A stretch of 64,000 nucleotides of DNA from an uncultured Gammaproteobacteria bacterium. GTDB taxonomy: Bacteria > Patescibacteriota > Patescibacteriia > Magasanikbacterales > UBA922. This document shows, piece after piece, positions 13,741 through 26,183 of the stretch. Both the position numbers and the translations under genes were made by a program. How positions within the stretch are numbered: the stretch's first letter is position 1; each line of letters opens with the position of its first letter. The stretch lies in assembly GCA_965231005.1 (NCBI GenBank), contig OZ246405.1, positions 674,709 to 738,708 on the forward strand. Direction: 5' to 3'. The notes beneath the pieces are model-generated. The model ran no database searches. It saw nothing but the letters and a program-made list of their open reading frames with translations, and was not told the DNA's origin.

Positions 13741-13769
13741 TTGACACAATTTGACACTTTTAGTATACT
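13741..13769 (+). promoter_or_regulatory. sigma70-like promoter TTGACA-N17-TATACT upstream of the HTH gene
   Basis: TTGACA at 13741-13746, 17-nt spacer, TATACT at 13764-13769. Lies in a 165-bp intergenic gap. Confidence 0.45.
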
Positions 13770-13797: not shown

Positions 13798-14046
13798 ATG
13801 GCAAAAGAAATAAAGGAAAATGCAGTATATACAACAAAAGAAGCGCAAGCTCTACTCAAAGTCAGTGAAAGCACAATCAAGCGTCTTTTGAAAAAGGGGA
13901 TATTAAAGGCAAATAAGGTCGGAGGTCAATATAGGATTATGGGTAAGGAGATTTTAAGACTCATTTCTCCAGATATGGAGAAAAAGGCTGAAAAAGCCTA
14001 TATGAAGGTAAAGAAAAAGGCTGTTGATGTTATAAATAAATGGTAA
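13798..14046 (+). CDS. helix-turn-helix DNA-binding protein (excisionase/MerR-like HTH family)
   Basis: 'YTTKEAQALLKVSESTIKRLLKKGILKANKVGGQYRI' matches the excisionase-family HTH domain. Confidence 0.55.
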   Translation: MAKEIKENAVYTTKEAQALLKVSESTIKRLLKKGILKANKVGGQYRIMGKEILRLISPDMEKKAEKAYMKVKKKAVDVINKW

Positions 14047-14080: not shown

Positions 14081-15061
14081 ATGAAGATACTTATTGCTCA
14101 ACCAATTCCAAAAGTAGGTGTTGAACTGCTTAAGAAGCATTTTAGTGTTGAAGAGGCAGATCATATGTTATCGAAGGAAGAAATGATTAATGCAATTTCA
14201 GATAAAGATGCCTTGGTTTGTGCAATGCATAATGTTGATGCCGAGATTATCAATGCAGGGAAAAATCTTAAAGTTATATCTCAACTAGGATCAGGATTTA
14301 ATAATATTGATATAAAGCTTGCTGGTGAAAAGGGTATAAAAGTTACAAATGCCCCAGGTGTTATGATGCAAACTGTGGCTGAATTTGCTTTTGCACATAT
14401 GCTAGCCCTCACTCGTAAAGTCGCAGAATCTGATCGGTATATTCGTTCAGGAAAATTTAGGACATGGGATTTTTCATTAATGGTTGGAAATGAGTTGAAA
14501 GGAAAGATTCTGGGTGTTATTGGATTTGGAGCAATAGCTAAACATCTCGTCCCAATTGCAAAAGGATTTGGGATGGAGATGTTATACAATAATCAGCAAG
14601 GAGAAGTAGAAGATTACAAGCATGATTCATCTGTGCAGTTTTCTAGCAAAGAAAATTTATTGCAGAATTCAGATTTTGTTCTTCTTCTTGTTCCATTAAA
14701 TGAAACAACAAGACATTTGATGAAGTACGAACAATTTTGCATGATGAAACCGACAGCCTTCTTTGTGAATTTGGCAAGGGGAAAAGTTGTTAAAGAGCAA
14801 GATTTAATCCGAGCGTTGAAGGAGAAAAAAATAGCAGGGGCTGGTTTAGATGTATATGAATTTGAGCCAGAGATTTCCAAGGAATTATTATTATTTTCAA
14901 ATACAGTATTGACTCCACATGTTGGTGGAGCAACAGAAGAGTCAAGAGCAAATCTCTCATTGATTGTTGCTCAAAATGTTATTTCTGTTCTCTCAGGAGA
15001 GACATGTAACAACATTGTAAATACAGAATTTTTGGAGAAAGTTCATAACGAACATATATGA
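14081..15061 (+). CDS. D-isomer-specific 2-hydroxyacid dehydrogenase (glycerate dehydrogenase / hydroxypyruvate reductase family)
   Basis: NAD fold 'GVIGFGAIAKHLV'; 'LARGKVVKEQDLIRALKEKKIAGAGLDVYEFEP'; 'TPHVGGAT'. Confidence 0.8.
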   Translation: MKILIAQPIPKVGVELLKKHFSVEEADHMLSKEEMINAISDKDALVCAMHNVDAEIINAGKNLKVISQLGSGFNNIDIKLAGEKGIKVTNAPGVMMQTVAEFAFAHMLALTRKVAESDRYIRSGKFRTWDFSLMVGNELKGKILGVIGFGAIAKHLVPIAKGFGMEMLYNNQQGEVEDYKHDSSVQFSSKENLLQNSDFVLLLVPLNETTRHLMKYEQFCMMKPTAFFVNLARGKVVKEQDLIRALKEKKIAGAGLDVYEFEPEISKELLLFSNTVLTPHVGGATEESRANLSLIVAQNVISVLSGETCNNIVNTEFLEKVHNEHI

Positions 15062-15816
15062 CGCAACAAGATTCAAAAAAATATACCACACTTATATGTG
15101 CAGCAGGTCAAGGCAAGCGTCTTATGCCAATGACAGCAGATAGACCGAAGACATTGGTAGAAGTCAATAGAAAACCAATAATAGAGTATATGTTAGATAA
15201 TTGTTCTGAAATTGGGCTTACAGATGTTATTATTCTAGTTGGATATAAGGGTGATGCAATAGAAGAAAAGTACGGGGATGTGTATAAGAACTGTAACCTT
15301 CGTTACATATACAATAAAGATTACGAAACAACCGACAATTTTTATTCTATTTTTTTAGCGAAAGAACATGTTCACGAAGGAATGATCTTTATGAATGCGG
15401 ATATTATCTTTCATAAACACGTTCTCGAATCATTGTTATCCAATGATTACCAAAGTGGTCTTGCTGTAGTTGATGTTGACAGTCCAGGGGCAGGGAAAAA
15501 TCCTGTACGAGTAAAGCTTGATGCACAAGGAAAAATAATTGATATTGGTCATAACATTGGCGATGAAAATAAAAAAATGGTCTTTGGAATTTACAAACTT
15601 TCAAAAAATGCTACAGCAAAATATTTTGAAGATGCAGAAAAATACTTTAGGAGTGGTCCTCAAAAAGGTGGTTTTTGGCTTCCTATAAGAAATGTTGTCT
15701 CTAATGAAAATTTTTATTCTATCCCTGTGTCAAATAAAAGTTGGGTTTCAATCAATAACATTGAAGAGCATAAGACTGCTTCGGCATTGGTGGATTCCAT
15801 TTTACATAATATTTAA
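15058..15816 (+). CDS. LicC-family cytidylyltransferase (CTP:phospho-alcohol / phospho-acid nucleotidyltransferase)
   Basis: 'LICAAGQGKRLMPMTADRPKTLVEVNRKPIIEY...NFYSIFLAKE' closely resembles LicC-type (phosphocholine / 2-phosphoglycerol) cytidylyltransferases. ATGA overlap with the upstream gene. Confidence 0.65.
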   Translation: MTQQDSKKYTTLICAAGQGKRLMPMTADRPKTLVEVNRKPIIEYMLDNCSEIGLTDVIILVGYKGDAIEEKYGDVYKNCNLRYIYNKDYETTDNFYSIFLAKEHVHEGMIFMNADIIFHKHVLESLLSNDYQSGLAVVDVDSPGAGKNPVRVKLDAQGKIIDIGHNIGDENKKMVFGIYKLSKNATAKYFEDAEKYFRSGPQKGGFWLPIRNVVSNENFYSIPVSNKSWVSINNIEEHKTASALVDSILHNI

Positions 15817-15825
15817 TTTTCTTAT

Positions 15826-16899
15826 ATGAAGAATATTCAAAAGAATGATTTGCAAGAAATGGTCCAGCGTATTTTTGAATTAGCTGGGTCTTCAACAGAA
15901 GAGGCAAGCGCTATAGCTGAATATTTAGTTGAAGCAAATTTAGTTGGTCATGATTCCCATGGAGTTATTCGCGTTGCTCATTATGTAAATTGGATTAGAG
16001 AAAAACGGGTGTTTGTAAATCAACATGTTGAAGAGGTAATAAAAGGAGATACGTTTGCTGTTTTTGATGGACATTTTGGTTTTGGCCAAGTACTTGGCAG
16101 AGAAGCAGTTCAGGTTGGAATTGATATGGCAAAAGATAGTGGAGTTTCTGTAGTTGGTCTTCGAAATTCAGGTCATTTGGGTCGAATTGGTGATTGGGCC
16201 ATCATGGCAGCCGAAGCTGGACTTGTTTCTATCCATTTTGTAAATGGGAACGGTTTTTCTATGTTAGCAGTTCCATTTGGAGGTTCTGATAAGAGACTTT
16301 CATCAAATCCTATATGTGTAGGCATCCCTCGCGGTGAAACATCTCCAATTATTCTTGATATTGCAACATGCCAAGCTTCTCACGGAAAAATAATGGTTGC
16401 AAAGAACAAGGGTGAGAGATTACCATTAGGAATGATTGTTGACGACAACGGACAACCTTCATGTGATCCTAATGTTATGTTTGGTCAAAAGATGGGTGCA
16501 ATCCTCCCCATGTCTCCTGGGCATAAAGGGTTTGGCCTTGCCCTTATTTGTGAATTATTGGCAGGTGCTCTTACCGGAAGTGATACGAGTCATCCAAACA
16601 GTCCGACTGTTCATCATGTTGGAAATGGAATGTTATCAATCTATATTGACAGGAAGCAGTTTAGAGAAGAGACTGGATATCTGTCTGAAATCGATAAGCT
16701 TGTAGATTGGGTGAAAGGATCACCGTTGTCTACTCCTGATGGTGAAATTCTTCTCCCGGGTGAACCAGAAGAAAGAACAAAAAACGATCGTCTTGAGAAA
16801 GGAATTCCTCTCGATGACGACACAATATCTCAAATTGCAGACACAGCTAAATCTGTAGGTGTGCCTGTTGAGGACATTAATTCATTATTTAAGATTTAG
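15826..16899 (+). CDS. Ldh_2-family (malate / L-lactate / sulfolactate type 2) dehydrogenase
   Basis: 'ANLVGHDSHGVIRVAHY' is a hallmark Ldh_2 motif. Confidence 0.6.
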   Translation: MKNIQKNDLQEMVQRIFELAGSSTEEASAIAEYLVEANLVGHDSHGVIRVAHYVNWIREKRVFVNQHVEEVIKGDTFAVFDGHFGFGQVLGREAVQVGIDMAKDSGVSVVGLRNSGHLGRIGDWAIMAAEAGLVSIHFVNGNGFSMLAVPFGGSDKRLSSNPICVGIPRGETSPIILDIATCQASHGKIMVAKNKGERLPLGMIVDDNGQPSCDPNVMFGQKMGAILPMSPGHKGFGLALICELLAGALTGSDTSHPNSPTVHHVGNGMLSIYIDRKQFREETGYLSEIDKLVDWVKGSPLSTPDGEILLPGEPEERTKNDRLEKGIPLDDDTISQIADTAKSVGVPVEDINSLFKI

Positions 16900-16907
16900 T
16901 CTTTTAT

Positions 16908-17738
16908 ATGTTGAAGAAAAAATTAAAGAAAATTTTACGCAAAAGTAAATTTATTGTGAGTCTATATTATCGTTTGAAACGAATTGTTGTATTTCCACTA
17001 AAATTTACACCTTTAAAACCATTTGCAAATACTACTTTTCCTTTAAAAGAATTATTTAAACCATCAAAATTGGCCTTGCTTATAAAGGTTGCCCCATTTT
17101 CGTTAGATAGCTATGGTGCATTGGGAAATGTCTATGATTTGGCAAAGGATGTTGAAGAAAGAAAAATTAATGGTGCATATGTAGAGTGCGGAACATGGAA
17201 AGGTGGTTGTGCTGCTATTATGGGCGCTATGACAAAGAGGTATGGCAGCGAAAGAACGACTTGGTACTTTGATTCTTTCGAAGGAATGCCTGAGCCAACT
17301 GAAAAGGATGCAAGAGGCAGAGGAAAAAGTGGTACAGTTCAAGATATCATGGGTGATGCACTAAAAGCAGATGTTGCTGATGTTGAAGAGGTTGCATTCA
17401 ATGTTTTACATCTTGAGAGAGACAAAAATATTATTGTAAAAGGATGGTTTGAAGATACATTGCCAGTAAAGAAAAAAGAAATAGGTCCAATAGCGATTCT
17501 CCGTCTCGACGGTGATTGGTATGAATCTACCATGACTACGCTAAATGAATTATATGACCAGGTTGTGCCAGGTGGATACGTTATTATTGATGACTATGGT
17601 TCATGGGAAGGTTGTCGGACTGCTGTTCATGAATTTCAAGAAAAGCGAGGCATAACTATGAATTTAGAATTTATGGGAGCTCACGATCCAGAGGCATTTG
17701 CTATTGTGCCTCCAGCATATTTTAAAAAAATTGACTAA
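16908..17738 (+). CDS. TylF/macrocin-O-methyltransferase-family SAM O-methyltransferase
   Basis: 'YVECGTWKGGCAAIM', 'WYFDSFEGMPEP', 'LRLDGDWYESTMTTLNELYDQVVPGGYVIIDDY'. Confidence 0.7.
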   Translation: MLKKKLKKILRKSKFIVSLYYRLKRIVVFPLKFTPLKPFANTTFPLKELFKPSKLALLIKVAPFSLDSYGALGNVYDLAKDVEERKINGAYVECGTWKGGCAAIMGAMTKRYGSERTTWYFDSFEGMPEPTEKDARGRGKSGTVQDIMGDALKADVADVEEVAFNVLHLERDKNIIVKGWFEDTLPVKKKEIGPIAILRLDGDWYESTMTTLNELYDQVVPGGYVIIDDYGSWEGCRTAVHEFQEKRGITMNLEFMGAHDPEAFAIVPPAYFKKID

Positions 17739-17745
17739 AAGTTTT

Positions 17746-19668
17746 ATGTGTGGAATCATTGGGGTCTTAGGAAAGGATATACCCAAACAACAAGACGTGA
17801 TTGAAGCTCGTGATACCATGAGTTATCGAGGTCCTGATGATGCAGGCATATATTATGATTCAAAAGAGTGTATTGCTTTGGGTCATAGACGTCTTTCAAT
17901 CATTGATCTGTCAGATGCTGGACATCAACCTTTTTTTAGTAATGATGAAAGATTTGTTTTAGTCTTTAATGGTGAAATCTATAATTACCTAGAAATAAAG
18001 GATGAATTAAAAAAATATTACAATTTTAAGACCAAAACAGACAGTGAAGTATTGCTTGCTGCATATATGAAATGGGGAGAAGCATGTCTAGAAAAATTTA
18101 ATGGAATGTTTGCCTTTGCCATTTGGGATAGAAAAGAGAAAAAACTCTTTCTTGCACGAGATCGTTTTGGTATTAAGCCACTTTACTATTACACAGATGA
18201 GAAAAATATTTATTTTTCCTCTGAAATAAAAGGAATAATACATTTTAACGAGGTTCCAAGAATATTAAATATAAAAGGTGTTTCAGATTACCTAAGTTAT
18301 CGCTATGTATTAGGGAAAGATACATTGTTCGAAGGAATTTATTCAGTGCTTCCCGGACATTATGCAGTTGTTGAAGTCGGTTCTCCTGTAAAACAACAGT
18401 GTTATTGGACACTTCCTGTTGTTTCAGAAAAGAAAGACCTAGGTGAGCAAGAAGTCCTTGAAAAAACTACAGCACTTTTAACAGATTCTGTTCGACTTAG
18501 ATTGCGGAGTGATGTTCCTACTGGTGCATATCTTAGTGGTGGGCTAGATTCCAGTGTCCTTGTAGGACTCATGTCATCATTATCTCATAGTCCCATTAAA
18601 ACATTTTCTACTGGTTTTTCTGAGGACGGATTCAATGAATTGGCATATGCAAAAGTAGTATCAGATCATTTTGAGACTGATCATCATGAATTTCTTTTGG
18701 ATGGCAAAGATTATTTTAGTTCTCTCCGTAAAGTGATTATGTTCAAAGATTATCCACTTTTATCACCAAACGAAGTTCCTTGGTACATTCTGTCAACCAA
18801 ATTAAAGAAAGATATTACCGTCGTCCTGTCTGGTGGAGGTGCTGACGAATTATTTGGAGGTTATGGAAGAATATTTCGAAGCGGGTATGATTTAGAACGC
18901 ATGTCTCAGTTGGATCAATTTTCAGAGGAAGAAAAGGAAATTCTTGTTCGAAATTTGAAAAAGAAGTATGGTGTGTCTTCTTTTAAGTCACCAATCGATC
19001 ATTTTTTGAGTCAATATCCATACATGAAACGTCCTCAAAAAGAGAAACTCCTGAATCAGGAAGTTTTTGATTCAGAAGAAGATCTATTGAACAAAAAATA
19101 TTTTGAAGAATTTTTTTCAAAACTCAATATGCTAAGTCCAACAGATCAGTATTTATATGTATTTCAGAATGTCCATCTGCTTGGTACACTGAATCATCTT
19201 GATAATGTAACAATGCCAACATCAGTTGAGGCAAGAGTCCCATTTGTAGATCATCATTTGGTTGAATATGTTTCTTCTCTACCTCTTAAATACAAAATGG
19301 CTTGGAAATCTAACGAAGATAGCCAAAAGGCAGCACTTTTGAACAGTAATGACATAAGTGAAATACACGATATTCCAAAATATATACTACGCAAGATTGG
19401 TTCCCAGTTTCTTCCTGAAGAGATTATACATAGAAAAAAACTTGGTTTTCCTGTGCCGTTAAATTCTTGGTTTGATGGTAAGTTCAAAAAAATTGCGAGA
19501 GATATGTTGCTTTCTCCGGATGCAAAATCGCGAGATCTTTATGACGAGCATGCCCTTTCTGACTTGCTTAACACCAATGATATATCTTTGACAAGAAATT
19601 ATGGGTTGCACATTTGGATGTTGATGAATATGGAGATTTGGCTTCAGGAATATAATGTACATGTGTAG
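17746..19668 (+). CDS. asparagine synthase-like glutamine amidotransferase (AsnB family; glycan amidotransferase)
   Basis: N-terminal nucleophile 'MCGIIGV', 'HRGPDD', PP-loop 'YLSGGLDSS'. Start at the ATG at 17746. Confidence 0.8.
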   Translation: MCGIIGVLGKDIPKQQDVIEARDTMSYRGPDDAGIYYDSKECIALGHRRLSIIDLSDAGHQPFFSNDERFVLVFNGEIYNYLEIKDELKKYYNFKTKTDSEVLLAAYMKWGEACLEKFNGMFAFAIWDRKEKKLFLARDRFGIKPLYYYTDEKNIYFSSEIKGIIHFNEVPRILNIKGVSDYLSYRYVLGKDTLFEGIYSVLPGHYAVVEVGSPVKQQCYWTLPVVSEKKDLGEQEVLEKTTALLTDSVRLRLRSDVPTGAYLSGGLDSSVLVGLMSSLSHSPIKTFSTGFSEDGFNELAYAKVVSDHFETDHHEFLLDGKDYFSSLRKVIMFKDYPLLSPNEVPWYILSTKLKKDITVVLSGGGADELFGGYGRIFRSGYDLERMSQLDQFSEEEKEILVRNLKKKYGVSSFKSPIDHFLSQYPYMKRPQKEKLLNQEVFDSEEDLLNKKYFEEFFSKLNMLSPTDQYLYVFQNVHLLGTLNHLDNVTMPTSVEARVPFVDHHLVEYVSSLPLKYKMAWKSNEDSQKAALLNSNDISEIHDIPKYILRKIGSQFLPEEIIHRKKLGFPVPLNSWFDGKFKKIARDMLLSPDAKSRDLYDEHALSDLLNTNDISLTRNYGLHIWMLMNMEIWLQEYNVHV

Positions 19669-19673
19669 TGTTT

Positions 19674-20543
19674 ATGGTTAGGCTAAAAAGAGTATTGACA
19701 AAGAATAAATTGGCTGTTGGTCTTTATCAACATTTGAAACGGGCTGTGCTTTTTCCAATAAGAAACACAAAATATAGAACAATATTAGATAATCAATTAT
19801 CAGTGAGAGATCTATTTAATTTTAAAAAAGGTATGTTACTTGGTAAGGTCCAACCGTATACAATGTCAGATTATGAGAGATTATCATACACGTACGATTT
19901 AGCACGCAAAGCTCCAGAAGGTGCATTTGTCGAGTGCGGGACATGGAAAGGAGGTAATGCCGCAATTATGGGAGATATTGCACGTGATAGCGACAGAACT
20001 ACATGGTATTTTGATTCCTTTCAAGGAATGCGAGAACCTACCGAAAAAGACATCGCATTTACAAGAAAAGGTAAAATACATGCAAAGGATCATTCGCTCG
20101 GGAACACAGATATGGCAGAAGCCTCAGTAGAAGATGTGGAAGAGATAATTACTATTCTAAACCTTCCAAAAGAAAGAAACATAATTGTCAAAGGCTGGTT
20201 TGAAGATACACTCCCCAAAAAGAAAGAAGCAATAGGAAACATTGCCCTTTTGCGTCTTGATGGTGATTGGTATGAATCCACAAAAACTATTTTGAATGAA
20301 CTTTACGATCAAGTTGTAGACGGAGGATATATCATCATAGATGATTACAAAGGATGGCAAGGATGCAGAAGAGCAGTTCATGATTTTTTACAAGAGCGAA
20401 ATATTATTCCCAATTTTCATTTTATGGGTGAGTTTGATAGAAAAAAAATACCTAAAGTTCCATCTGTCTATTTTGTAAAAGGTGAAAAATGTGAGGATCA
20501 AGGTTTATTCAATGAATTGGAAGAATTAGCTTTACTATCATAA
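19674..20543 (+). CDS. TylF/macrocin-O-methyltransferase-family SAM O-methyltransferase (paralogue of 16908..17738)
   Basis: 'FVECGTWKGGNAAIMG', 'WYFDSFQGMREP', 'LRLDGDWYESTKTILNELYDQVVDGGYIIIDDY'. The track start at 19668 is GTG; first ATG is at 19674. Confidence 0.7.
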   Translation: MVRLKRVLTKNKLAVGLYQHLKRAVLFPIRNTKYRTILDNQLSVRDLFNFKKGMLLGKVQPYTMSDYERLSYTYDLARKAPEGAFVECGTWKGGNAAIMGDIARDSDRTTWYFDSFQGMREPTEKDIAFTRKGKIHAKDHSLGNTDMAEASVEDVEEIITILNLPKERNIIVKGWFEDTLPKKKEAIGNIALLRLDGDWYESTKTILNELYDQVVDGGYIIIDDYKGWQGCRRAVHDFLQERNIIPNFHFMGEFDRKKIPKVPSVYFVKGEKCEDQGLFNELEELALLS

Positions 20544-20561
20544 AAAATAACTTCAAAACAT

Positions 20562-21398
20562 ATGCAAGATAATAAAAAAAATTCTGTACAAATTAATCTA
20601 GAAGGAAAGGTGGCTTTGGTCACTGGTGCAAATAAAGGTCTTGGTTTTTACATTAGTAAGACACTTGCTGAAGCTGGCGCTCACGTGTTCGCTGGTTGTC
20701 GTGATCTTGAACAAGGAAAACACGCTATGCAAGAATGTATTGACAGTGGTTTGTCAATTGAATTAGTCGCACTTGATGTCACTGACCAACAATCTGTGGA
20801 TGTTGCAGTAGACAAAATTTTAGATAAACAAGGGAAGATTGATATATTAGTGAATAATGCTGGCGTACTTGGTGGACAAGGTTGGGAAGAACGTCTAGAA
20901 GAAAATGCAGAAGACTGGGAGATGAATTATGAAGTAAATTTGAGAGGTGTTGCAAGAATGACAGATGCTGTGGTTAAAGGAATGAAGGAAAAACAATATG
21001 GAAAGATAATTAATATTGCGTCAAATGCAGGAAGAGGTGGGAATGGAAAACACATTCCATCATCTTACGGGGCTACAAAAGCCGCAGTCATCAATCTGAC
21101 TCAGACAAACGCACTAAGCTATGCGGCAGATAATATTAATGTAAACTGTGTTTGTCCGGGGATTATATGGACTCCAATGTTGGCAACAATTGGTGAGCGG
21201 TTAGGTAATCTAAATGAAGACACAAAGGGCTTAACTCCTGAAGAAGTGTTTGCGTGGCAAGCAAAAACTCGTGTTCCTCTAAAGAGAGGACAAACAGGTG
21301 AAGACATTGGTTATATGACTGCATTTCTTGCCTCTGAATTATCTAGAAATATTACAGGACAAAGTATTAATGTAAATGGTGGTATTCGAATGAATTAA
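20562..21398 (+). CDS. short-chain dehydrogenase/reductase
   Basis: 'VALVTGANKGLGFYI' and 'YGATKAAV' (YxxxK). Confidence 0.75.
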   Translation: MQDNKKNSVQINLEGKVALVTGANKGLGFYISKTLAEAGAHVFAGCRDLEQGKHAMQECIDSGLSIELVALDVTDQQSVDVAVDKILDKQGKIDILVNNAGVLGGQGWEERLEENAEDWEMNYEVNLRGVARMTDAVVKGMKEKQYGKIINIASNAGRGGNGKHIPSSYGATKAAVINLTQTNALSYAADNINVNCVCPGIIWTPMLATIGERLGNLNEDTKGLTPEEVFAWQAKTRVPLKRGQTGEDIGYMTAFLASELSRNITGQSINVNGGIRMN

Positions 21399-21408
21399 TT
21401 ATTTCTCT

Positions 21409-22743
21409 ATGTTTATTCCAGATTCAAAACAAGCTATCGATCTTCCAGTAAGAAAGAAATTACTTAAGATTTTGAATACTGCAATTCGTTGTGTCCAACC
21501 ACAACAGTTTATTGGAAAGTCTGTCAGGTTTGAACATGAAACACTGTATGTAAAAAATGATAAGTTTTCAACAGAGAACAAGAGGATATTTGTTATTGGT
21601 TCTGGAAAGGCGTCTGCAGAAATGGCTGAAGAGATCGAACGGATTCTTGCACCCGAAAGGATTACAGCAGGAATAATTATTACTCATAGAACTGATGTGA
21701 CCTTGAAAAAAATTCATGTGCGTTCTGCAGGGCATCCCATTCCTTCAGAAGAAGGTTTACTTGCAACAAAAGAGATATTTGATCTTAAAAGTAAATATGG
21801 TATTTCTGCTAATGATATTATTATTGCTCTTGTCTCAGGTGGAGCATCTGCTCTGATGCCATATCCTGTTTTTGGGATTTCTCTTGAAGATAAAAAAATA
21901 TTGTATGACATATTTATAGAACGTGCAATTCCTGGCTTTGAAAGTACAAAAATAAAAGCAAACGTTTCACAAGTGAAAAGTGGAGGACTTGCAAAGCATT
22001 TTTTCCCTACACCAATTATTTCTCTTATTCTTTCCGATGACAATGGAAAATCAGGACATGAAAATACTGGCTCTGGTCCATTTACAAATAATGATTTTAC
22101 ATGCTTGGATGCATTAAAGATTATAGATAAATATGATTTAAAAAATGTAATACCAGATTCAATTTATTCTCACTTGAAAGATGGTGAAGAAAGGAATACA
22201 AGCCAGCTTAATCATGAATCCATTTATCAGTATGTACTTGCGACAAATAAAGACTTAGTAGAGGAAATTGGAAAAATTGCAGAGAATGAAGGAATAGATG
22301 TTTCCACTAAAATTCATGTTGATGGTGAGGCCTCAGAGACTGCTCTGGAATTTTGCAATGAAATTACTAAACGAAAAAAAGATAGTGCAAATATGCTATT
22401 ATATGGCGGTGAAACTACAGTGCATTTGCCAAAAACGCATGGAATTGGTGGAAGAAATCAAGAGTTTGCCGTGGCTTGTTTAAAATATTTAGATAGCATG
22501 GGTTCAAACGATTGGTGTGTTGCAGCAATTGCAACTGATGGTGTTGATTTTATAAAAGAATCGGCCGGTGGAATCATTGATAGTAGTTCACAAGATGTTA
22601 TAAAAGAAAAAAAATATGATATTGATGAATTCCTTGAGAAACATGATTCTCATAATTTGCTTAAGTCTATTGGATCAAATGTAGTCACTGAAAAAGGAAC
22701 TGGTACGAATGTTGGAGATATAATGGTTTATTTACAAATATAA
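21409..22743 (+). CDS. glycerate 2-kinase (MOFRL family, GckA/TtuD-like)
   Basis: 'LLYGGETTVHLPKTHGIGGRNQEFAVA' is the MOFRL-family catalytic block. N-terminal 'FVIGSGKAS...ALVSGGASAL'. Confidence 0.6.
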   Translation: MFIPDSKQAIDLPVRKKLLKILNTAIRCVQPQQFIGKSVRFEHETLYVKNDKFSTENKRIFVIGSGKASAEMAEEIERILAPERITAGIIITHRTDVTLKKIHVRSAGHPIPSEEGLLATKEIFDLKSKYGISANDIIIALVSGGASALMPYPVFGISLEDKKILYDIFIERAIPGFESTKIKANVSQVKSGGLAKHFFPTPIISLILSDDNGKSGHENTGSGPFTNNDFTCLDALKIIDKYDLKNVIPDSIYSHLKDGEERNTSQLNHESIYQYVLATNKDLVEEIGKIAENEGIDVSTKIHVDGEASETALEFCNEITKRKKDSANMLLYGGETTVHLPKTHGIGGRNQEFAVACLKYLDSMGSNDWCVAAIATDGVDFIKESAGGIIDSSSQDVIKEKKYDIDEFLEKHDSHNLLKSIGSNVVTEKGTGTNVGDIMVYLQI

Positions 22744-22759: not shown

Positions 22760-23329
22760 ATGTATACATGGAGCAATGAAAAGCGACTCGACACGCTTAA
22801 TGTCGAAGGTGAAGACAATAAGTTAATTTTTCAAACTGCAGAAGAACGGGCAGAAGTTTTTATTGTTGATGGAGATATCGATAAAGTAATTTTTACTGAA
22901 ACAGGAAAAGATCCTGTTACAATTACAAAAGATGAAAGATCTTACATTGTTGTTGGTGAAGGAAATTGGGAAAGAGATGTATATCATTTTCTTAAACCTG
23001 GTGGTCCAGCGCCTACAATGAGACTTGGAATCACAAGCCATAAGGGGATTGGAACATGGTCAAGTTTGCCACATGACTTTGAATTAAACACTGAAAAGGA
23101 TTTTGAAGAAGTATTTTTTTACATATTAGATGGTGGGCCTCAGCGTGCAATCCAAGTTGGTAAAGGTGTTTGGCACGACAATACACCGGTTGATGATGTG
23201 TGGAAGGTTGAACATAATTCTTTTGGAACAATACCTATGGGATATCATCCTGTTGTAGCTGAACCACATGTACATGTTTCTTATATCTGGGTGTATCTTG
23301 CAAAGAAAAAAGAATGGGAAAAAATATAA
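22760..23329 (+). CDS. hypothetical protein (possible cupin-fold sugar-modifying enzyme)
   Basis: No firm motif. Size and beta-rich composition only. Confidence 0.2.
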   Translation: MYTWSNEKRLDTLNVEGEDNKLIFQTAEERAEVFIVDGDIDKVIFTETGKDPVTITKDERSYIVVGEGNWERDVYHFLKPGGPAPTMRLGITSHKGIGTWSSLPHDFELNTEKDFEEVFFYILDGGPQRAIQVGKGVWHDNTPVDDVWKVEHNSFGTIPMGYHPVVAEPHVHVSYIWVYLAKKKEWEKI

Positions 23330-23343: not shown

Positions 23344-25392
23344 ATGTCTACGCTTTCAATTTACTCAATTTTTCATTTGAATCTTGCCTACTCTTCTCTT
23401 TCTAAAGAAAGAAGAAAAGATGTTATTGCACGCTGCTATTGGCCTCTTTTGAGATTGGCTGAAGATACTGATGTTGGTATAGGAATTGAAGCAACTGTCT
23501 TTACTCTTGAGAAGATACAAGAAATTGACCCTTTATTTATTGAGAAATTGAAATCACTTATCCAAGAAAAGAAATGTGAATTTATTGGAAGTGGGTGCGC
23601 TCAAGTGATAGGGCCTATTGTTCCTGTAGAAGTCAATGAACATAATCTTGGTATTGGAAATGATTTATATGAATCCATGTTAGGAATACGACCGCGCATT
23701 GCATATCTAAACGAACTTACATATTCCAAGAGTCTTGTTCAACTTTACATTGACGCAGGTTATGAAGCTATTTATATGGAATCAAATAATCCTGTAAAGT
23801 TTCATCCTGAATGGAATTTTGAAATTCAATATAATCCACAAGTCGCAGTTGATGACAAAGGGAGAAAAATAAAATTACTTTGGAATAATTCGGTAGGGTT
23901 TCAAAAATTTCAACGATATGCTTCTGCTGAGATCGACATGAATGAATATATGGAGTATTTGTTGTCACATGTTGGTGAACATCCTCGTTTTTTTTCTTAT
24001 TATGGTTCTGATGCTGAAATATTTGATTTTAGAACCGTGCGTTATGATGAAGAAGCTCCAATTGTTGATTCGGGTGAATGGCAGAGAATACGTGATCTAC
24101 TGACACATATGAAAGAGAATCCAAATCTTTCATTTATGTCTCCAAGCAGAGCCTTAGGATTAGCAAATGGACAATATTCATTTAATGAAATTCGTTTGGA
24201 ATCAGGCGATCAACCAATCCCCGTGAAGAAGAGAGAAAAATACAATCTTACACGTTGGTCGCTTACTGGACGTGACGATATTGGGATAAATACTATGTGT
24301 TATCAGATTTATAGCAATTTAATGCAATATCAGAATGAAAAAAAAGTAAGTGCAGAGACAGATTCAACAGTATATGCATATTGGAAAGATCTATGTTATT
24401 TGTGGGGGAGTGATTTTAGAACGCATATTGTAGAAGATAGATTTATTGAGCATGGGAAGAAAATACGTCAGCTACTAGATGATACAAATAAATTGTTGGA
24501 AGAAGAGAAAGGTAATTTTGTTGGCAACATTTCTATTCAAGAAAAAGATAAAACAGGTGTTGTCCCAGTAGTAAAGAAAGAAGGGAGAAAAGTTATAGTT
24601 GAAACAGCTTGTGTAAGTATAGAGCTGAATGTGCAGAAGGGTCTTGCAATCGAATCGTTAGTTTATAAAGATATTTCAGAAAAGTCATTAATTGGAACAT
24701 TACAGAATGGGTATTATAATGATGTGTCATTTGCAGAAGATTTTTTTAGCGGTCACACAGCAATAGCAATACCAATGAGACAAAAAATAACGGATTTAGA
24801 GCATGTTGACATCCTTATTTCTGAAGTTTCACCAGACAGCGAATATGTAGATCTTGAATGTGATGTCAGACTAAAATCAGGAGTTATCAAGAAAAAAATA
24901 CGGATATACAACTACGCAAACAGAATTGACATTGAGTATGATTTCAGACTCAAAGATATATTTCCATCATCGTTTCGAACATGTGTGTTAACATATAATC
25001 CTAATGCATTTGAAAAGAAAAGTTTATACTATGGATGTCACAATGGTGGTGAAGATAAGGAATATTTTGATTTGAAAAAAGATTTAAGATGTGGGCAGTT
25101 GTTATTTCATCTTATTTCCGCACAATCAGTGCTAGGAAATACAAAAGGAAGTTTTGAAATCGGTGATAAAGATAAAACTATTGAGATAGTAACTGATATG
25201 ACGAAAGTTGCGGCTCTTCCTATGATTGATTTTATAGGCATGAAAGAAGATAATTATTTTCTCAGAACATTTTATTCACTTGGTGAATTTGATGAGACTA
25301 GTTTATTGAGCAATAAAATGAGAGATGCAGAAATTACATTTTCAGCAACAATTTTTGGAAAAAGAAATTGTAGACCTGAAATACTTTCTTAA
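23344..25392 (+). CDS. large hypothetical protein, possibly GH57-like (beta/alpha)7-barrel carbohydrate-processing enzyme
   Basis: N-terminal 'FHLNLAY...CYWPLLRL...FIGSGCAQVIGPIVP' loosely resembles GH57-family N-terminal blocks. Weak. Confidence 0.25.
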   Translation: MSTLSIYSIFHLNLAYSSLSKERRKDVIARCYWPLLRLAEDTDVGIGIEATVFTLEKIQEIDPLFIEKLKSLIQEKKCEFIGSGCAQVIGPIVPVEVNEHNLGIGNDLYESMLGIRPRIAYLNELTYSKSLVQLYIDAGYEAIYMESNNPVKFHPEWNFEIQYNPQVAVDDKGRKIKLLWNNSVGFQKFQRYASAEIDMNEYMEYLLSHVGEHPRFFSYYGSDAEIFDFRTVRYDEEAPIVDSGEWQRIRDLLTHMKENPNLSFMSPSRALGLANGQYSFNEIRLESGDQPIPVKKREKYNLTRWSLTGRDDIGINTMCYQIYSNLMQYQNEKKVSAETDSTVYAYWKDLCYLWGSDFRTHIVEDRFIEHGKKIRQLLDDTNKLLEEEKGNFVGNISIQEKDKTGVVPVVKKEGRKVIVETACVSIELNVQKGLAIESLVYKDISEKSLIGTLQNGYYNDVSFAEDFFSGHTAIAIPMRQKITDLEHVDILISEVSPDSEYVDLECDVRLKSGVIKKKIRIYNYANRIDIEYDFRLKDIFPSSFRTCVLTYNPNAFEKKSLYYGCHNGGEDKEYFDLKKDLRCGQLLFHLISAQSVLGNTKGSFEIGDKDKTIEIVTDMTKVAALPMIDFIGMKEDNYFLRTFYSLGEFDETSLLSNKMRDAEITFSATIFGKRNCRPEILS

Positions 25393-25400: not shown

Positions 25401-26183
25401 ATGAAATACACATATAAATACATTGTAGAAAACAGATACGATCCAAATGCACACAAGGCAAGAAAGATCGGTGACAAGTATGTCCTTATGACTGCAATAT
25501 CAAAAGCACTTTCACCAGTTCCAGTGTATATCTTCCTTAATCTAGGTATTCATCCAGACACGATTACACTGATTAGCCTTCTTTTTATTCTTATTGGATC
25601 TGGAGCATTTGTTGTTGGCCTACCTCTTTTAGGAATTCTATTTTATCTTCTTTTTGCTTTGTTTGATTCAGTAGATGGAGATATGGCTCGATGCGCTGGT
25701 CCAACATCTTATGGGAGTGTTCTAGATTCATTTGGTGCCGACTTGTTTTATGCCTGTTCTCCCATTGCAGTAAGTTTTTATTTGTTTTCAAAAGAAATAG
25801 CAATCCTAAATATGGAATCTTCTTTTCTTTTACTTGTTGGGGCATTCATTTCAGCAACATTTATGGTTTATAGACTTATTAATGCAAAGGTATATAAGTT
25901 TATGAGTAATGCAAGTAATGGATCGTCAGACTATACGCAAGGAGCAAAAAAGAAGATACGCAGCGGAGTCTTAAAAAGCATTGTAAAAGTGTATAGGCAT
26001 GTGTTAGTAAGAGGTAATTTTTTTGCAGAACCAGGAATGCTATTTTGGTTTTCAATTCTTACCATATTTAAGGCCCATGAAGTGCTGGCTTGGTATTTAC
26101 TTGGAATTCTCATATACAATATCGGGTATTTATCTATGAATTTTTTTGGAACATATATATTTTTTAAAACACTAAGAAAATGA
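25401..26183 (+). CDS. CDP-alcohol phosphatidyltransferase-family membrane phosphotransferase
   Basis: 'DSVDGDMARCAGPTSYGSVLDSFGADLF' approximates DGxxAR...G...D...D. Multiple TM segments. Confidence 0.5.
   Translation: MKYTYKYIVENRYDPNAHKARKIGDKYVLMTAISKALSPVPVYIFLNLGIHPDTITLISLLFILIGSGAFVVGLPLLGILFYLLFALFDSVDGDMARCAGPTSYGSVLDSFGADLFYACSPIAVSFYLFSKEIAILNMESSFLLLVGAFISATFMVYRLINAKVYKFMSNASNGSSDYTQGAKKKIRSGVLKSIVKVYRHVLVRGNFFAEPGMLFWFSILTIFKAHEVLAWYLLGILIYNIGYLSMNFFGTYIFFKTLRK

What the first reader, a model, noticed from the sequence alone, without database searches (positions are those of the whole stretch)
16908..20543. Two TylF-family O-methyltransferases flanking an AsnB-like amidotransferase, next to glycerate enzymes
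The order is TylF-like, AsnB-like, TylF-like (GTG/ATG-coupled), lying between the hydroxy-acid dehydrogenases and the glycerate kinase. AsnB homologues in ulosonic-acid loci (e.g. PseA) make amidino/amide derivatives. Paired O-methyltransferases beside glycerate-forming enzymes would fit a di-O-methyl-glyceroyl-type substituent. I recall such a decoration reported on Campylobacter flagellin pseudaminic acid, but I cannot verify the responsible genes from memory. A second AsnB-like gene (27556..29319) directly precedes the first NeuB module.
Basis: partly seen in the sequence, partly recalled or inferred. Interest (0 to 1): 0.6.

Follow-up and report, generated by a model that had tools for sequence, protein, structure and literature searches.

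The report
Methyl- and amide-tailored CDP-glycerate surface cassette
The two methyltransferase genes and the asparagine-synthetase-like gene are real, but they belong to a gene cassette conserved in tiny Patescibacteria that most likely builds a methylated, amidated phosphoglycerate-type building block for the cell surface, and they are not tied to the neighbouring sialic-acid-like sugar genes.

Summary
TylF-like (16908-17738), AsnB-like (true start 17746, to 19668) and TylF-like (19674-20543) genes lie between hydroxy-acid dehydrogenases and a glycerate-2-kinase-like gene. Both methyltransferases keep the SAM motif and the NovP/MycF metal triad. Both AsnB-likes keep the glutaminase site and the PP-loop but lack the glutamate that asparagine synthesis needs.

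The nonulosonic-acid reading is weakly supported. In ten other contigs or lineages, all with Patescibacteria-like relatives, AsnB1 stays beside five partners:
- a LicC-like cytidylyltransferase
- a glycerate-2-kinase-like gene, fused to the cytidylyltransferase in eight protein clusters
- a methyltransferase
- a PgsA-type CDP-alcohol phosphotransferase
- a TagF-like transferase

Seven contigs have no nonulosonic-acid gene within the 8-10 kb held. The second TylF occurs in only three sequenced loci. The second AsnB travels with the cassette, not with NeuB.

The closest characterised system is Caulobacter CpgD/CpgA, which makes and transfers CDP-glycerate. My best reading (about 0.45) is kinase, then cytidylyltransferase, giving CDP-glycerate. 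AsnB1 converts the carboxylate to a carboxamide, TylF O-methylates, and the unit is installed as a phosphodiester. This resembles the D-glyceramide 2-phosphate of a Providencia O-antigen. It is a new variant of a known kind and rests on inference, not experiment.

The parts
13741..13769 (+). Best sigma-70-like promoter match in 13-30 kb, lying in the 165-bp gap before the cassette
   Evidence: TTGACA-17-TATACT, 11 of 12 matches. The total number of matches is not above the shuffle expectation, so this is weak evidence.
13798..14046 (+). HTH_17 small DNA-binding protein (82 aa), always the first gene of the cassette
   Evidence: PF12728 at 3.4e-12. It is present at the 5' end of the cassette in L005-L009, L091-L093 and L096-L098, with 66-85% identity.
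14081..15061 (+). D-2-hydroxyacid dehydrogenase (glyoxylate/hydroxypyruvate reductase or PGDH-like). Found in type A cassettes, with another 2-Hacid_dh gene in L098.
   Evidence: PF02826 at 1.5e-54. The best NCBIfam match is glyoxylate reductase, below its cut-off.
15058..15816 (+). LicC-like (COG1213-type) nucleotidyl, probably cytidylyl, transferase. Invariant member of the cassette.
   Evidence: PF00483 and PF12804. The best solved relative is LicC CTP:phosphocholine cytidylyltransferase, 1JYK, at 4.6e-20; IMPCT 4JD0 scores 7e-6. It is fused to the kinase-like protein in L094, L096 and 8 protein clusters. The conserved AAGxGxR, PK, [TS]xNxxS and N[GAC]D motifs are shown.
15826..16899 (+). 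Ldh_2 (malate/L-lactate/YbiC-type) 2-hydroxyacid dehydrogenase. Type A cassettes only.
   Evidence: PF02615 at 1.3e-101. NF007504 scores 369 bits, above its cut-off of 336.
16908..17738 (+). TylF-1: TylF/MycF/NovP-family SAM- and metal-dependent O-methyltransferase, always directly upstream of AsnB1
   Evidence: PF05711 at 2.5e-49. Solved relatives 5I10/4CDZ score 1e-28 and NovP 1.7e-27. Motifs are VECGTWKGG at 92-100, D201/D203 and D228/D229. Orthologues of 59-83% identity lie next to AsnB1 in seven loci.
17746..19668 (+). AsnB1: class II (Ntn) glutamine amidotransferase with a PP-loop adenylating domain. It belongs to a TylF-linked subfamily that lacks the asparagine-synthetase glutamate.
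   Evidence: Pfam and NCBIfam results are. It has MCGIIG, HRRLSIID, NGEIYN, TDSEV and the PP-loop LSGGLDSS. It reads LSG-G-GADE where E. coli AsnB has LSG-E348-GSDE. The best solved relative is the hydroxyamidotransferase 7YLZ.
19674..20543 (+). TylF-2: paralogue of TylF-1 (53% identity). Accessory; found only in the window, L009 and L093.
   Evidence: PF05711 at 1.6e-39. NovP scores 1.1e-24, with D196/D223/D224 aligned to conserved Asp residues. Paralogy and orthologues are shown. The alternative start is GTG 19668.
20562..21398 (+). Classical short-chain dehydrogenase/reductase. Present in the TylF-containing cassette types A and B.
   Evidence: PF00106 at 1.8e-52. Synteny is shown.
21409..22743 (+). 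Glycerate-2-kinase-like protein (DUF4147 + MOFRL). Invariant member of the cassette.
   Evidence: Pfam results are. Solved relatives are PH0495 at 1.1e-57 and the T. maritima putative glycerate kinase at 2.3e-45. It scores below the glycerate 2-kinase equivalog cut-offs. Eight clusters among its 44 closest homologues are fused to NTP_transferase.
22760..23329 (+). KduI/IolB-like cupin (putative ketol-isomerase). Type A cassettes only.
   Evidence: PF04962 at 2.9e-15. Orthologues are present in L005, L091 and L093.
23344..25392 (+). 682-aa protein with an N-terminal GH57-like domain. Function unknown. Type A cassettes only.
   Evidence: PF03065 at 7.4e-15 over residues 26-207. It has no NCBIfam hit and no solved relative. 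Orthologues are present in L005 and L093.
25401..26183 (+). Membrane CDP-alcohol phosphotransferase (PgsA/PIP-synthase type). Invariant member of the cassette.
   Evidence: PF01066 at 3.7e-5. NCBIfam matches are archaetidylinositol-phosphate synthase and PIP synthase. The motif reads D89xxD92G93xxA96R97-x7-G105xxxD109xxxxD114, and the protein has several hydrophobic segments. Solved relative 6H53 scores 6.7e-5 across the motif.
26180..27553 (+). TagF/TagB-like (Glyphos_transf) GT-B transferase. A member of this family is present in every cassette.
   Evidence: PF04464 at 8.2e-11. It has a weak match to the BFO_1060 family. Orthologues of 46-52% identity are present in L005, L007 and L092-L096.
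27556..29319 (+). AsnB2: second Ntn amidotransferase with a PP-loop domain (37% identical to AsnB1). Accessory member of the cassette.
   Evidence: Pfam and NCBIfam results are. Orthologues of 53-55% identity sit beside the CDP-alcohol phosphotransferase gene, or one methyltransferase gene away, in L092, L094 and L096. LEGQGxDE (Gln at the Glu348 position) and SSG[LV]DS are conserved in all four.

Best explanation
The TylF-AsnB-TylF trio is the tailoring part of a self-contained cassette (13798-29319). The cassette is conserved in Patescibacteria-like genomes. It makes a cytidine-diphosphate-activated C3 hydroxy-acid unit of the phosphoglycerate type and installs it, through a phosphodiester bond, on a surface polymer or membrane lipid.

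Proposed steps:
1. The dehydrogenases supply glycerate.
2. The MOFRL kinase-like enzyme phosphorylates it, by family precedent at O-2.
3. The LicC-like transferase joins it to CMP to give CDP-glycerate, the reaction shown for Caulobacter CpgD.
4. AsnB1 adenylates the carboxylate and replaces it with a primary amide, using ammonia from its own glutaminase domain. The result is a glyceramide phosphate unit.
5. TylF-1 methylates the remaining hydroxyl. TylF-2, where present, replaces the class I methyltransferase seen in other versions.
6. The PgsA-type CDP-alcohol phosphotransferase and the TagF-like enzyme(s) transfer the phospho-unit.

What is shown here: the families, the intact catalytic motifs, the conserved synteny, the kinase-cytidylyltransferase fusion, and the loss of the asparagine-synthetase glutamate.

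What is inferred: the identity of the acid, the order of the steps, the site of methylation and the acceptor.
For: **Conserved gene set.** The invariant set is AsnB1, LicC-like NTP-transferase, glycerate-2-kinase-like protein, a methyltransferase, CDP-alcohol phosphotransferase and a TagF-like protein. It is seen in ten further loci or lineages despite rearranged order and different accessory genes (tblastn map).

**Fusion.** NTP-transferase and kinase-like protein form one polypeptide in L094 and L096 (705 and 694 aa) and in 8 clusters among the 44 closest kinase homologues. This indicates consecutive steps on one substrate.

**Cytidylyltransferase.** Its closest solved relative is LicC (4.6e-20), a small-molecule-phosphate cytidylyltransferase, not a sugar-1-phosphate enzyme.

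**Published precedent.**
- CpgD is of the same COG1213 type. It makes CDP-glycerate and prefers D-2-phosphoglycerate (PMC12275187, PMC13228409).
- CpgA has a PgsA domain and adds the phosphoglycerate (PMC9393093).
- The window protein at 25401-26183 carries a near-canonical CDP-alcohol phosphotransferase motif.

**Variant with GAPDH and phosphatase.** L097 replaces the dehydrogenases with a GAPDH-like enzyme plus a HAD phosphatase, a route from a triose phosphate to a free acid.

**AsnB1 chemistry.** It keeps Cys1, Arg, Asn-Gly-Glu, Asp and the PP-loop, so it can make ammonia and adenylate a carboxylate. It lacks Glu348/Glu364.

**Link between AsnB1 and TylF.** All nine AsnB1 relatives that share a contig with a TylF have Gly, Ser or Asn at that position. 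None of the 40 relatives that keep Glu at this position shares a contig length with any listed close TylF homologue. The TylF-linked proteins form one clade.

**Chemical precedent.** D-glyceramide 2-phosphate exists in the P. alcalifaciens O22 O-antigen (cited in PMC6222762).
Against: - No enzyme here has been assayed.
- The kinase-like protein scores far below the curated glycerate 2-kinase cut-offs (189 bits against 670). Its substrate could be another hydroxy acid, including a C4 acid: the L097 GAPDH-like protein also resembles erythrose-4-phosphate dehydrogenase.
- 2-Phosphoglycerate is a glycolytic intermediate, so a dedicated kinase is not obviously needed.
- Characterised TylF-family enzymes methylate sugar hydroxyls, not small acids.
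- A 2-phosphoglyceramide has only one free hydroxyl, yet this window has two TylF genes.
- The Glu loss in TylF-linked AsnB1 is one evolutionary event, so it counts as a single observation.
- The ~640-aa AsnB family that keeps Glu also occurs in ordinary O-antigen-type loci (L095).
- TagF-like proteins can be nonulosonic-acid transferases (PMC5420450). The two here match that family weakly.
- No CpgD or CpgA sequence was available for direct comparison. The residue match is positional only.
Confidence: 0.45

Rival explanations
1. Sugar tailoring. AsnB1 and/or AsnB2 amidate a hexuronic acid, and the TylF enzymes O-methylate a sugar of the same glycan. The product would be an O-methylated uronamide. 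The glycerate, cytidylyltransferase and phosphotransferase genes would be a separate neighbouring function.
For: - Characterised TylF relatives (NovP, MycF and the 4CDZ/5I10 enzyme) act on sugar hydroxyls.
- The T. forsythia O-glycan locus combines an AsnB (605 aa), two redundant methyltransferases and a 4-O-methyl-ManNAc-uronamide (PMC6120980).
- The island encodes two UDP-sugar dehydrogenases (55954-57336 and 57338-58639). L005 has one 10 kb upstream.
- Relatives of AsnB1 at 46% identity sit in ordinary O-antigen-type loci (L095).
Against: - TylF-1 and AsnB1 are embedded inside the kinase, cytidylyltransferase and phosphotransferase block in every locus, even when the order is rearranged (type A against type B).
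- Most of those loci show no UDP-sugar dehydrogenase in the sequence held.
- The TylF-linked AsnB1 clade has a changed substrate pocket.
Confidence: 0.2
2. The genes decorate a nonulosonic acid with a di-O-methyl-glyceroyl N-acyl group and with amidino or amide groups.
For: - The cassette lies directly upstream of NeuB, NeuC and CMP-transferase modules.
- N-glyceroyl pseudaminic acid is known in T. forsythia, where the responsible gene is unidentified (PMC6120980).
- Di-O-methylglyceric pseudaminic acid is known in C. jejuni 11168 (PMC3958885).
- TagF_a and TagF_b weakly match the BFO_1060 family named after the T. forsythia Pse transferase.
- L097 and L010 have CMP-transferase or NeuB genes nearby.
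Against: - Seven cassette-bearing contigs have no nonulosonic-acid gene in the 8-10 kb held.
- The cassette contains no acyl-transfer or amide-ligase gene. Instead it has a kinase, a cytidylyltransferase and a CDP-alcohol phosphotransferase.
- The glutaminase domains are intact, which implies primary amides.
- Most cassettes have one TylF or none.
- AsnB2 orthologues accompany the phosphotransferase gene, not NeuB.
- Neither AsnB-like matches an N-acetyl-sugar amidotransferase model.
Confidence: 0.1
3. Chain-end capping. CDP-glycerate or CDP-glyceramide units are polymerised by the TagF-like enzymes. The TylF enzymes methylate the terminal hydroxyl of the finished chain to stop growth before ABC-transporter export, and do not act on the monomer.
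For: - ABC exporters lie in or beside the loci (39567-41357; L007; L098).
- Both TylF proteins have strongly basic N-termini, which suggests peripheral membrane association (sequences).
- A monomer methylated on its only free hydroxyl could not be extended into a polymer.
Against: - No direct evidence supports it.
- It does not explain why the AsnB1 pocket changed specifically in the TylF-linked clade.
- TylF is replaced by, or accompanied by, class I methyltransferases in other versions.
Confidence: 0.12
4. Ordinary metabolism. The AsnB-likes are asparagine synthetases, and the methyltransferases are unrelated neighbours.
For: Both AsnB-likes pass the broad TIGR01536 model that NCBI uses to name 'asparagine synthase (glutamine-hydrolyzing)'. 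Database names of relatives say the same.
Against: - The Glu348/Glu364 equivalent is Gly in AsnB1 and Gln in AsnB2. E364A and E364Q human enzymes are inactive (PMC6748925).
- The AsnB equivalog NF006949 scores 306 and 257 bits against a cut-off of 499.
- The best solved relative is a hydroxyamidotransferase, not AsnB.
- Synteny with surface-polymer genes is strict.
Confidence: 0.02

Closest known systems
Caulobacter crescentus CpgD/CpgA (CDP-glycerate pathway for ceramide diphosphoglycerate)
   Same: - It pairs a COG1213/LicC-type cytidylyltransferase with a PgsA-type CDP-alcohol phosphotransferase.
- CpgD makes CDP-glycerate and prefers D-2-phosphoglycerate.
- CpgA is proposed to transfer the phosphoglycerate (PMC12275187, PMC13228409, PMC9393093).
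- The window has the same pair of enzyme families, plus a glycerate-2-kinase-like gene that is fused to the cytidylyltransferase in relatives.
   Different: - The window has no ceramide kinase or sphingolipid genes.
- The host is a Patescibacteria-like organism.
- The cassette adds a dedicated kinase-like gene, one or two AsnB-type amidotransferases, methyltransferases and TagF-like transferases.
- Direct sequence comparison with CpgD and CpgA was not possible.
Wall teichoic acid and related CDP-polyol systems (TagD/TagF, TarI/J/L, LicC/LicD, IPCT/DIPPS)
   Same: The logic is the same: phosphorylated small alcohol, then a CDP-activated donor, then phosphodiester transfer by TagF-family or CDP-alcohol phosphotransferase enzymes. 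Export is by an ABC transporter.
   Different: The predicted donor is a hydroxy acid derivative tailored by amidation and methylation, not glycerol, ribitol, choline or inositol. The cytidylyltransferase is LicC-like, not TagD-like.
D-glyceramide 2-phosphate substituent of the Providencia alcalifaciens O22 O-antigen
   Same: This known glycan component is exactly what amidation of 2-phosphoglycerate or CDP-2-glycerate would give (Ovchinnikova et al. 2012, cited in PMC6222762).
   Different: I know of no described biosynthetic genes for it, and none could be compared here. It carries no methyl group, and the organism is unrelated.
Tannerella forsythia protein O-glycosylation cluster
   Same: It combines an AsnB-like gene, redundant methyltransferases, a TagB-like transferase and nonulosonic-acid genes in one locus. 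The glycan carries an O-methylated uronamide and an N-glyceroyl pseudaminic acid (PMC6120980, PMC5420450).
   Different: It has no kinase, LicC-like cytidylyltransferase or CDP-alcohol phosphotransferase. Its TagB-like enzyme transfers a nonulosonic acid. The role of its AsnB is itself unproven.
AsnB-family enzymes that are not asparagine synthetases (the hydroxyamidotransferase of PDB 7YLZ, beta-lactam synthetase, lasso-peptide cyclases)
   Same: They share the Ntn glutaminase plus PP-loop adenylation architecture. 7YLZ is the best solved relative of both AsnB-likes.
   Different: 7YLZ keeps the Glu (ALSGEAADE). AsnB1 has Gly and AsnB2 has Gln. The predicted substrate is a small hydroxy acid phosphate or nucleotide.

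Membership tests
TylF/MycF/NovP O-methyltransferases (PF05711) | Profile match above the curated threshold | tested here: met
   TylF-1 scores 168.4 bits and TylF-2 136.2 bits, against a cut-off of 23.
TylF/MycF/NovP O-methyltransferases (PF05711) | SAM-binding glycine-rich motif (ExGxxxGG) | tested here: met
   VECGTWKGG lies at 92-100 in TylF-1 and 86-94 in TylF-2. It aligns to E(T)GVWRGG of the solved enzymes.
TylF/MycF/NovP O-methyltransferases (PF05711) | Metal-binding Asp triad and the neighbouring Asp (NovP D196, D198, D223, D224; numbering from my knowledge of the NovP paper, with a tag offset of 20 in 2WK1) | tested here: met
   LRLD-G-D and IIDDY align to MDGD and VDDY of NovP. The residues are D201/D203/D228/D229 in TylF-1 and D196/D198/D223/D224 in TylF-2.
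TylF/MycF/NovP O-methyltransferases (PF05711) | Acceptor is a hydroxyl of a (deoxy)sugar | not testable with these tools
   The acceptor is unknown. The gene context suggests a small hydroxy acid unit or a polymer end.
Asparagine synthetase B (housekeeping AsnB, NF006949) | N-terminal Cys nucleophile and glutamine-site residues (Arg49, Asn74, Gly75, Glu76, Asp98) | tested here: met
   MCGIIG, HRRLSIID, NGEIYN and TD(S/T)EV are present in both proteins. The residue list comes from PMC5775275.
Asparagine synthetase B (housekeeping AsnB, NF006949) | PP-loop SGGxDS | tested here: met
   AsnB1 has LSGGLDSS, invariant in 122 relatives. AsnB2 has the variant LSSGLDSN, conserved in four orthologues.
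Asparagine synthetase B (housekeeping AsnB, NF006949) | Glu348 (human Glu364), conserved in known asparagine synthetases and required for activity | tested here: not met
   AsnB1 reads LSG-G-GADE and AsnB2 reads LEG-Q-GVDE, against E. coli LSG-E-GSDE. E364A and E364Q variants are inactive (PMC6748925). Asp351 and Glu352 are kept.
Asparagine synthetase B (housekeeping AsnB, NF006949) | Score above the curated equivalog cut-off | tested here: not met
   The scores are 306.4 and 256.7 bits, against a cut-off of 499. Only the broad TIGR01536 model is passed.
CDP-glycerate system (CpgD/CpgA type) | COG1213/LicC-type CTP-dependent cytidylyltransferase | tested here: inconclusive
   Membership at the family level is clear: LicC 1JYK scores 4.6e-20 and IMPCT 4JD0 scores 7e-6. 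Motifs at the positions of CpgD G12/R16, K26, T88/N90/T93 and N110/G111/D112 are conserved in all cassette copies. However, no CpgD sequence was available, so the match is positional only.
CDP-glycerate system (CpgD/CpgA type) | PgsA-type CDP-alcohol phosphotransferase partner | tested here: met
   The protein matches PF01066 and PIP-synthase models. It carries the motif DxxDGxxAR-x7-GxxxDxxxxD, which has one extra residue before the last Asp. Solved relative 6H53 scores 6.7e-5.
CDP-glycerate system (CpgD/CpgA type) | Phosphoglycerate is the activated substrate | tested here: inconclusive
   This is supported only by the adjacent or fused glycerate-2-kinase-like gene. That gene scores below the equivalog cut-offs.
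CDP-glycerate system (CpgD/CpgA type) | Sphingolipid context (ceramide kinase CpgB, serine palmitoyltransferase) | tested here: not met
   Pfam scans of the window's ORFs of 150 aa or more found no such domains.
Nonulosonic-acid modification enzymes (PseA/Ptm type) | Membership of the N-acetyl-sugar amidotransferase family that forms acetamidino groups | tested here: not met
   No such model appears among the NCBIfam matches of AsnB1 or AsnB2. It is my recollection, not tested here, that PseA itself lacks the Ntn glutaminase domain.
Nonulosonic-acid modification enzymes (PseA/Ptm type) | Consistent genomic linkage to NeuB/PseI-type synthase genes | tested here: not met
   L005/6, L007/8, L091, L093, L094, L096 and L098 have no NeuB, NeuC or CMP-transferase in the 8-10 kb held each side; L009 and L092 are short or cut contigs that show none. 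Linkage is seen only in the window, in L097 and, for a more distant TylF homologue without AsnB1 or the kinase, in L010.
TagF/TagB glycerophosphotransferase family (PF04464) | Profile match above the curated threshold | tested here: met
   The scores are 41.9 and 38.6 bits, against a cut-off of 22.1.
TagF/TagB glycerophosphotransferase family (PF04464) | Phosphotransfer from a CDP-donor, as opposed to glycosyl transfer from a CMP-sugar | not testable with these tools
   Both activities occur in this fold (PMC5420450). There is a weak BFO_1060-family match and no solved relative by sequence.

The most novel reading that the evidence does not exclude
Patescibacteria use a previously undescribed surface chemistry. 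CDP-glycerate is converted by a specialised AsnB subfamily into CDP-glyceramide and O-methylated by TylF-type enzymes. It is then polymerised or attached by TagF-like and CpgA-like transferases. The product would be a teichoic-acid-like poly(glyceramide phosphate) or a glyceramide-phosphate lipid or glycan cap. The variant cassettes (aminotransferase, GAPDH plus phosphatase, or luciferase-like enzymes) would make a family of related head groups. This would also give the first biosynthetic route to the glyceramide 2-phosphate found in some O-antigens.
Probability: 0.25. Interest if true: 0.75.

Novelty: new variant of a known kind. Interest (0 to 1): 0.55.

Why it matters
Almost nothing is known experimentally about the cell surfaces of Patescibacteria. 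These organisms live attached to other microbes and have genomes of about 1 Mb, yet here one devotes more than 50 kb to surface glycan genes.

The cassette gives a concrete, testable pathway built from six soluble enzymes. It extends the recently discovered CDP-glycerate chemistry beyond Caulobacter sphingolipids. It offers a candidate route to glyceramide phosphate decorations. It also defines AsnB-like subfamilies that are annotated everywhere as 'asparagine synthase' but almost certainly are not.

Tried and rejected
- **Genome scan.** The GTDB genome scan with TylF-1 returned 80 loci. Apart from one Patescibacteria MAG at 54% identity, they were TylF homologues of 31-47% identity, many cyanobacterial, and none showed the cassette. 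This shows only that the cassette is confined to close relatives.
- **Metagenome scan.** The JGI metagenome scan with AsnB1 found one unrelated locus.
- **RNA genes.** Rfam and tRNA scans of the window found nothing.
- **Solved structures.** Searches with the GH57-like protein and with TagF_a gave no significant hit.
- **Source organism.** The assignment to Patescibacteria rests only on the names of the closest homologues.
- **Cupin fusion.** I tested whether the C-terminal cupin fused to the TylF-1 orthologue P0003 matches the window's KduI-like protein. It does not.
- **Amino-group reading of the AsnB1 glutamate.** I considered that the Glu in aminotransferase-linked cassettes binds a substrate amino group. 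I dropped this as over-interpretation for two reasons. Glu is the family default, also present in loci without an aminotransferase (L095). The aminotransferase is an ordinary alpha-amino-acid type.
- **PseA family.** A literature search for the family assignment of PseA found nothing usable.
- **Deoxysugar pathway.** I rejected the idea that the cassette is a classical NDP-deoxysugar pathway. It has no 4,6-dehydratase or DegT-type aminotransferase. Its SDR is of the classical FabG type, and its kinase is not a sugar kinase.
- **GC-rich segment.** The segment at 53450-55700 gave no family or plasmid match.

Full report
**The observation**

The window is a low-GC (about 34%) stretch in which nearly all genes are on the + strand, and it is dominated by surface-glycan genes. 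The three genes of the finding are real.
- 16908-17738 matches the TylF family at 2.5e-49.
- The middle gene matches Asn_synthase at 2.4e-83, plus the class II glutamine amidotransferase domain.
- 19668/19674-20543 matches TylF at 1.6e-39.

The middle gene starts at ATG 17746. This gives M-C-G-I-I-G, the obligatory Cys directly after Met, so it does not overlap TylF-1. Its TAG stop overlaps a GTG by one base, but an ATG six bases on is the start used by gene callers.

Upstream lie a D-2-hydroxyacid dehydrogenase, then an NTP-transferase, then an Ldh_2 dehydrogenase. Downstream lie an SDR, then a DUF4147/MOFRL glycerate-2-kinase-like gene. The second AsnB-like gene at 27556-29319 precedes a NeuB gene.

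**The enzymes themselves**

TylF-1 and TylF-2 are 53% identical paralogues. Both align to the solved family members NovP, MycF and the 4CDZ/5I10 enzyme at 1e-20 to 1e-29. Both keep the ExGxxxGG SAM motif and the Asp residues that bind the metal in NovP. They are very probably active, metal-dependent O-methyltransferases.

Both AsnB-likes keep the glutaminase residues and a PP-loop (residue list from PMC5775275). They should therefore generate ammonia from glutamine and adenylate a carboxylate.

Several results argue against asparagine synthesis.
- E. coli AsnB has Glu348 (human Glu364). This residue is conserved in known asparagine synthetases, and E364A and E364Q variants are inactive (PMC6748925). 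AsnB1 has Gly and AsnB2 has Gln at this position.
- Neither protein reaches the curated AsnB equivalog score.
- The best solved relative of both is a hydroxyamidotransferase, not AsnB.

**The surroundings elsewhere**

The exact proteins come from metagenome assemblies of project PRJEB17505 and from a 1.23-Mb NCBI contig. The closest named homologues are from Wolfebacteria, Parcubacteria, Falkowbacteria and 'Patescibacteria group' bins.

I looked up contigs that encode homologues of TylF-1 and AsnB1. This gave ten further loci or lineages, which I mapped with tblastn.

One set of genes is always present:
- a small HTH_17 gene, usually first
- AsnB1
- the LicC-like NTP-transferase
- the glycerate-kinase-like gene
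- a methyltransferase
- a CDP-alcohol phosphotransferase
- a TagF-like transferase

The accessory genes define four versions.
- **Type A** (window, L005/6, L091, L093, partly L009) adds the two 2-hydroxyacid dehydrogenases, an SDR, a KduI-like cupin and a GH57-like protein.
- **Type B** (L007/8, L092) adds a NUDIX protein, an SDR and a luciferase-like oxidoreductase.
- **Type C** (L094, L096, L098) has an aspartate-aminotransferase-like gene and class I methyltransferases. It has no TylF.
- **Type D** (L097) has a GAPDH-like enzyme and a HAD phosphatase.

TylF-1 is always immediately upstream of AsnB1 in types A and B. TylF-2 occurs only in the window, L009 and L093. Orthologues of the second AsnB (53-55% identity) sit beside the CDP-alcohol phosphotransferase gene, or one methyltransferase gene away, in L092, L094 and L096. 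AsnB2 is therefore an accessory part of this cassette and not a companion of NeuB.

Seven of these contigs (L005/6, L007/8, L091, L093, L094, L096, L098) show no NeuB, NeuC or CMP-transferase gene in the 8-10 kb held on each side, and the short or cut L009 and L092 show none either.

**What the cassette does**

Three results point to a CDP-activated small acid.

1. In L094, L096 and eight protein clusters among the 44 closest kinase homologues, the NTP-transferase and the kinase-like protein form a single polypeptide of about 700 aa. This is the classic sign of consecutive steps.
2. The NTP-transferase's closest solved relative is LicC, the CTP:phosphocholine cytidylyltransferase (4.6e-20). 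Sugar-1-phosphate enzymes score far lower.
3. The literature holds a direct precedent.
   - Caulobacter CpgD is of the same COG1213 type. It converts CTP and phosphoglycerate, preferably D-2-phosphoglycerate, into CDP-glycerate (PMC12275187, PMC13228409).
   - CpgA carries a PgsA domain and is needed to add the second phosphoglycerate to the sphingolipid (PMC9393093).
   - The window protein at 25401-26183 is of that same family. It has a near-canonical DxxDGxxAR...GxxxD...D motif and a match to mycobacterial PIP synthase.

Positions corresponding to CpgD's Gly12/Arg16, Lys26, Thr88/Asn90/Thr93 and Asn110/Gly111/Asp112 are conserved in all cassette cytidylyltransferases. I had no CpgD sequence, so this match is positional only.

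The type D variant would take a triose phosphate to a free acid and is consistent with glycerate. It equally allows a C4 acid.

**Where the trio fits**

An intact Ntn/PP-loop amidotransferase next to a pathway that builds a carboxylic acid unit most simply converts that carboxylate into a primary amide. The product would be a glyceramide phosphate unit.

D-glyceramide 2-phosphate is a known O-antigen substituent in Providencia alcalifaciens O22 (cited in PMC6222762). I know of no described genes for it.

TylF-1 would then methylate the remaining hydroxyl, on the monomer or at a chain end.

One further observation ties AsnB1 to TylF.
- Among the 120 closest AsnB1 relatives, 104 keep Glu at the Glu348 position.
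- All nine relatives that share a contig with a TylF have Gly, Ser or Asn there.
- None of the 40 relatives that keep Glu at this position shares a contig length with any listed close TylF homologue.
- The three Glu-type loci I inspected have the aminotransferase and no TylF.

The TylF-linked proteins form one clade in a neighbour-joining tree. This is therefore one evolutionary event and only modest evidence that the substrate pocket changed together with the arrival of TylF.

**Weaknesses**

- Nothing has been assayed.
- The kinase-like protein is far below the curated glycerate 2-kinase thresholds.
- 2-Phosphoglycerate is already available from glycolysis.
- Known TylF enzymes act on sugars.
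- A 2-phosphoglyceramide offers one hydroxyl for two TylF enzymes.
- TagF-like proteins can transfer nonulosonic acids (PMC5420450), and the two here weakly match that family.

The main rival is sugar tailoring, giving an O-methylated uronamide as in the Tannerella forsythia O-glycan (PMC6120980). The island does encode two UDP-sugar dehydrogenases. I rate this rival at about 0.2. A chain-capping role for the TylF enzymes gets about 0.12. Ordinary asparagine synthesis gets about 0.02.

**Comparison with what is known, and verdict**

In logic this is a CDP-alcohol or CDP-acid phosphodiester decoration system. It is like teichoic acid synthesis and most like CpgD/CpgA.

It is not a member of the sphingolipid pathway, because no ceramide genes are present. 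It differs by adding a dedicated kinase, AsnB-type amidation, O-methylation and TagF-like transferases, in an organism with a genome of about 1 Mb.

I class it as a new variant of a known kind, with moderate interest (0.55). The proposed target (nonulosonic acid) and product (di-O-methylglyceroyl) are not supported by the comparative evidence.

Noticed in passing
window 5474-13632: This block reads FkbH-like loader (TIGR01686), 78-aa carrier protein (7282-7518), MaoC dehydratase (7524-7925), SDR, MBOAT (8686-10146), an unknown 359-aa protein, and two GDSL/SGNH proteins. It looks like a Dlt-type extracellular O-acylation system fed by a glyceryl-carrier-protein loader. The same block lies next to the cassette in L091 and L098.
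   Followed up: partly
window ~53450-55700: A 2.2-kb segment has 46-67% GC in a 34% GC genome. It carries ORFs on the minus strand, or on both strands, with no Pfam family and no match in the plasmid collection. It may be a foreign insertion or an assembly chimera.
   Followed up: partly
window 13798-14046 (and the first gene of the cassette in L005-L009, L091-L093, L096-L098): An 82-aa HTH_17 protein is usually the first gene of the cassette and is its most conserved protein (66-85% identity, against 40-70% for the enzymes). The best promoter-like site lies just upstream at 13741-13769. It may be a dedicated regulator or the remnant of a mobile module.
   Followed up: partly
window 29265-53413: This region holds four NeuB-family synthases (29265, 35447, 48520, 52562), two NeuC-type 2-epimerases and five CMP-sugar synthetase genes. 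It also holds SIS, KdsC-like and inositol-monophosphatase-like genes. That implies several different ulosonic acid pathways in a genome of about 1.2 Mb.
   Followed up: no
L094 11224-13341; L096 11147-13231; proteins P0260, P0263, P0267, P0268, P0272, P0273, P0275, P0279: These are natural fusions of the LicC-like NTP-transferase with the DUF4147/MOFRL kinase-like protein (about 695-705 aa).
   Followed up: yes
protein P0003 (393 aa; metagenome contig of 5.7 kb): This TylF-1 orthologue (79% identity) carries a C-terminal cupin_2 domain. The domain is not detectably similar to the window's KduI-like cupin.
   Followed up: partly
L093 17848-20453: After the TagF-like gene come an unknown 397-aa protein, a HisF-like gene and a HisH-like gene. 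This trio resembles, from memory, the acetamidino-forming WbuX/Y/Z type. A true amidino-forming system would therefore look different from the AsnB-likes.
   Followed up: no
window 27556-29319; L092 14330-15892; L094 15049-16815; L096 15760-17502: The AsnB2 subfamily has a conserved LEGQGxDE, with Glu shifted two residues upstream and Gln at the Glu348 position. It also has a variant PP-loop, SSG[LV]DS.
   Followed up: yes
window 26180-27553 and 33288-34709: Both TagF-like proteins give their best NCBIfam match, weak at 63-65 bits against a cut-off of 200, to the BFO_1060 glycosyltransferase family. That family is named after the Tannerella locus tag of the pseudaminic-acid transferase region. 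The donor they use is therefore open.
   Followed up: partly
L095 (Hydrogenimonas sp. SS33 chromosome) 8001-12593: A 46%-identical AsnB1 relative that keeps the Glu lies in a Wzx/Wzz-type locus. It is followed by a CN-hydrolase, a LicC-like NTP-transferase and a TagF-like gene, with no kinase. This may be a distant cousin of the cassette outside the Patescibacteria.
   Followed up: no
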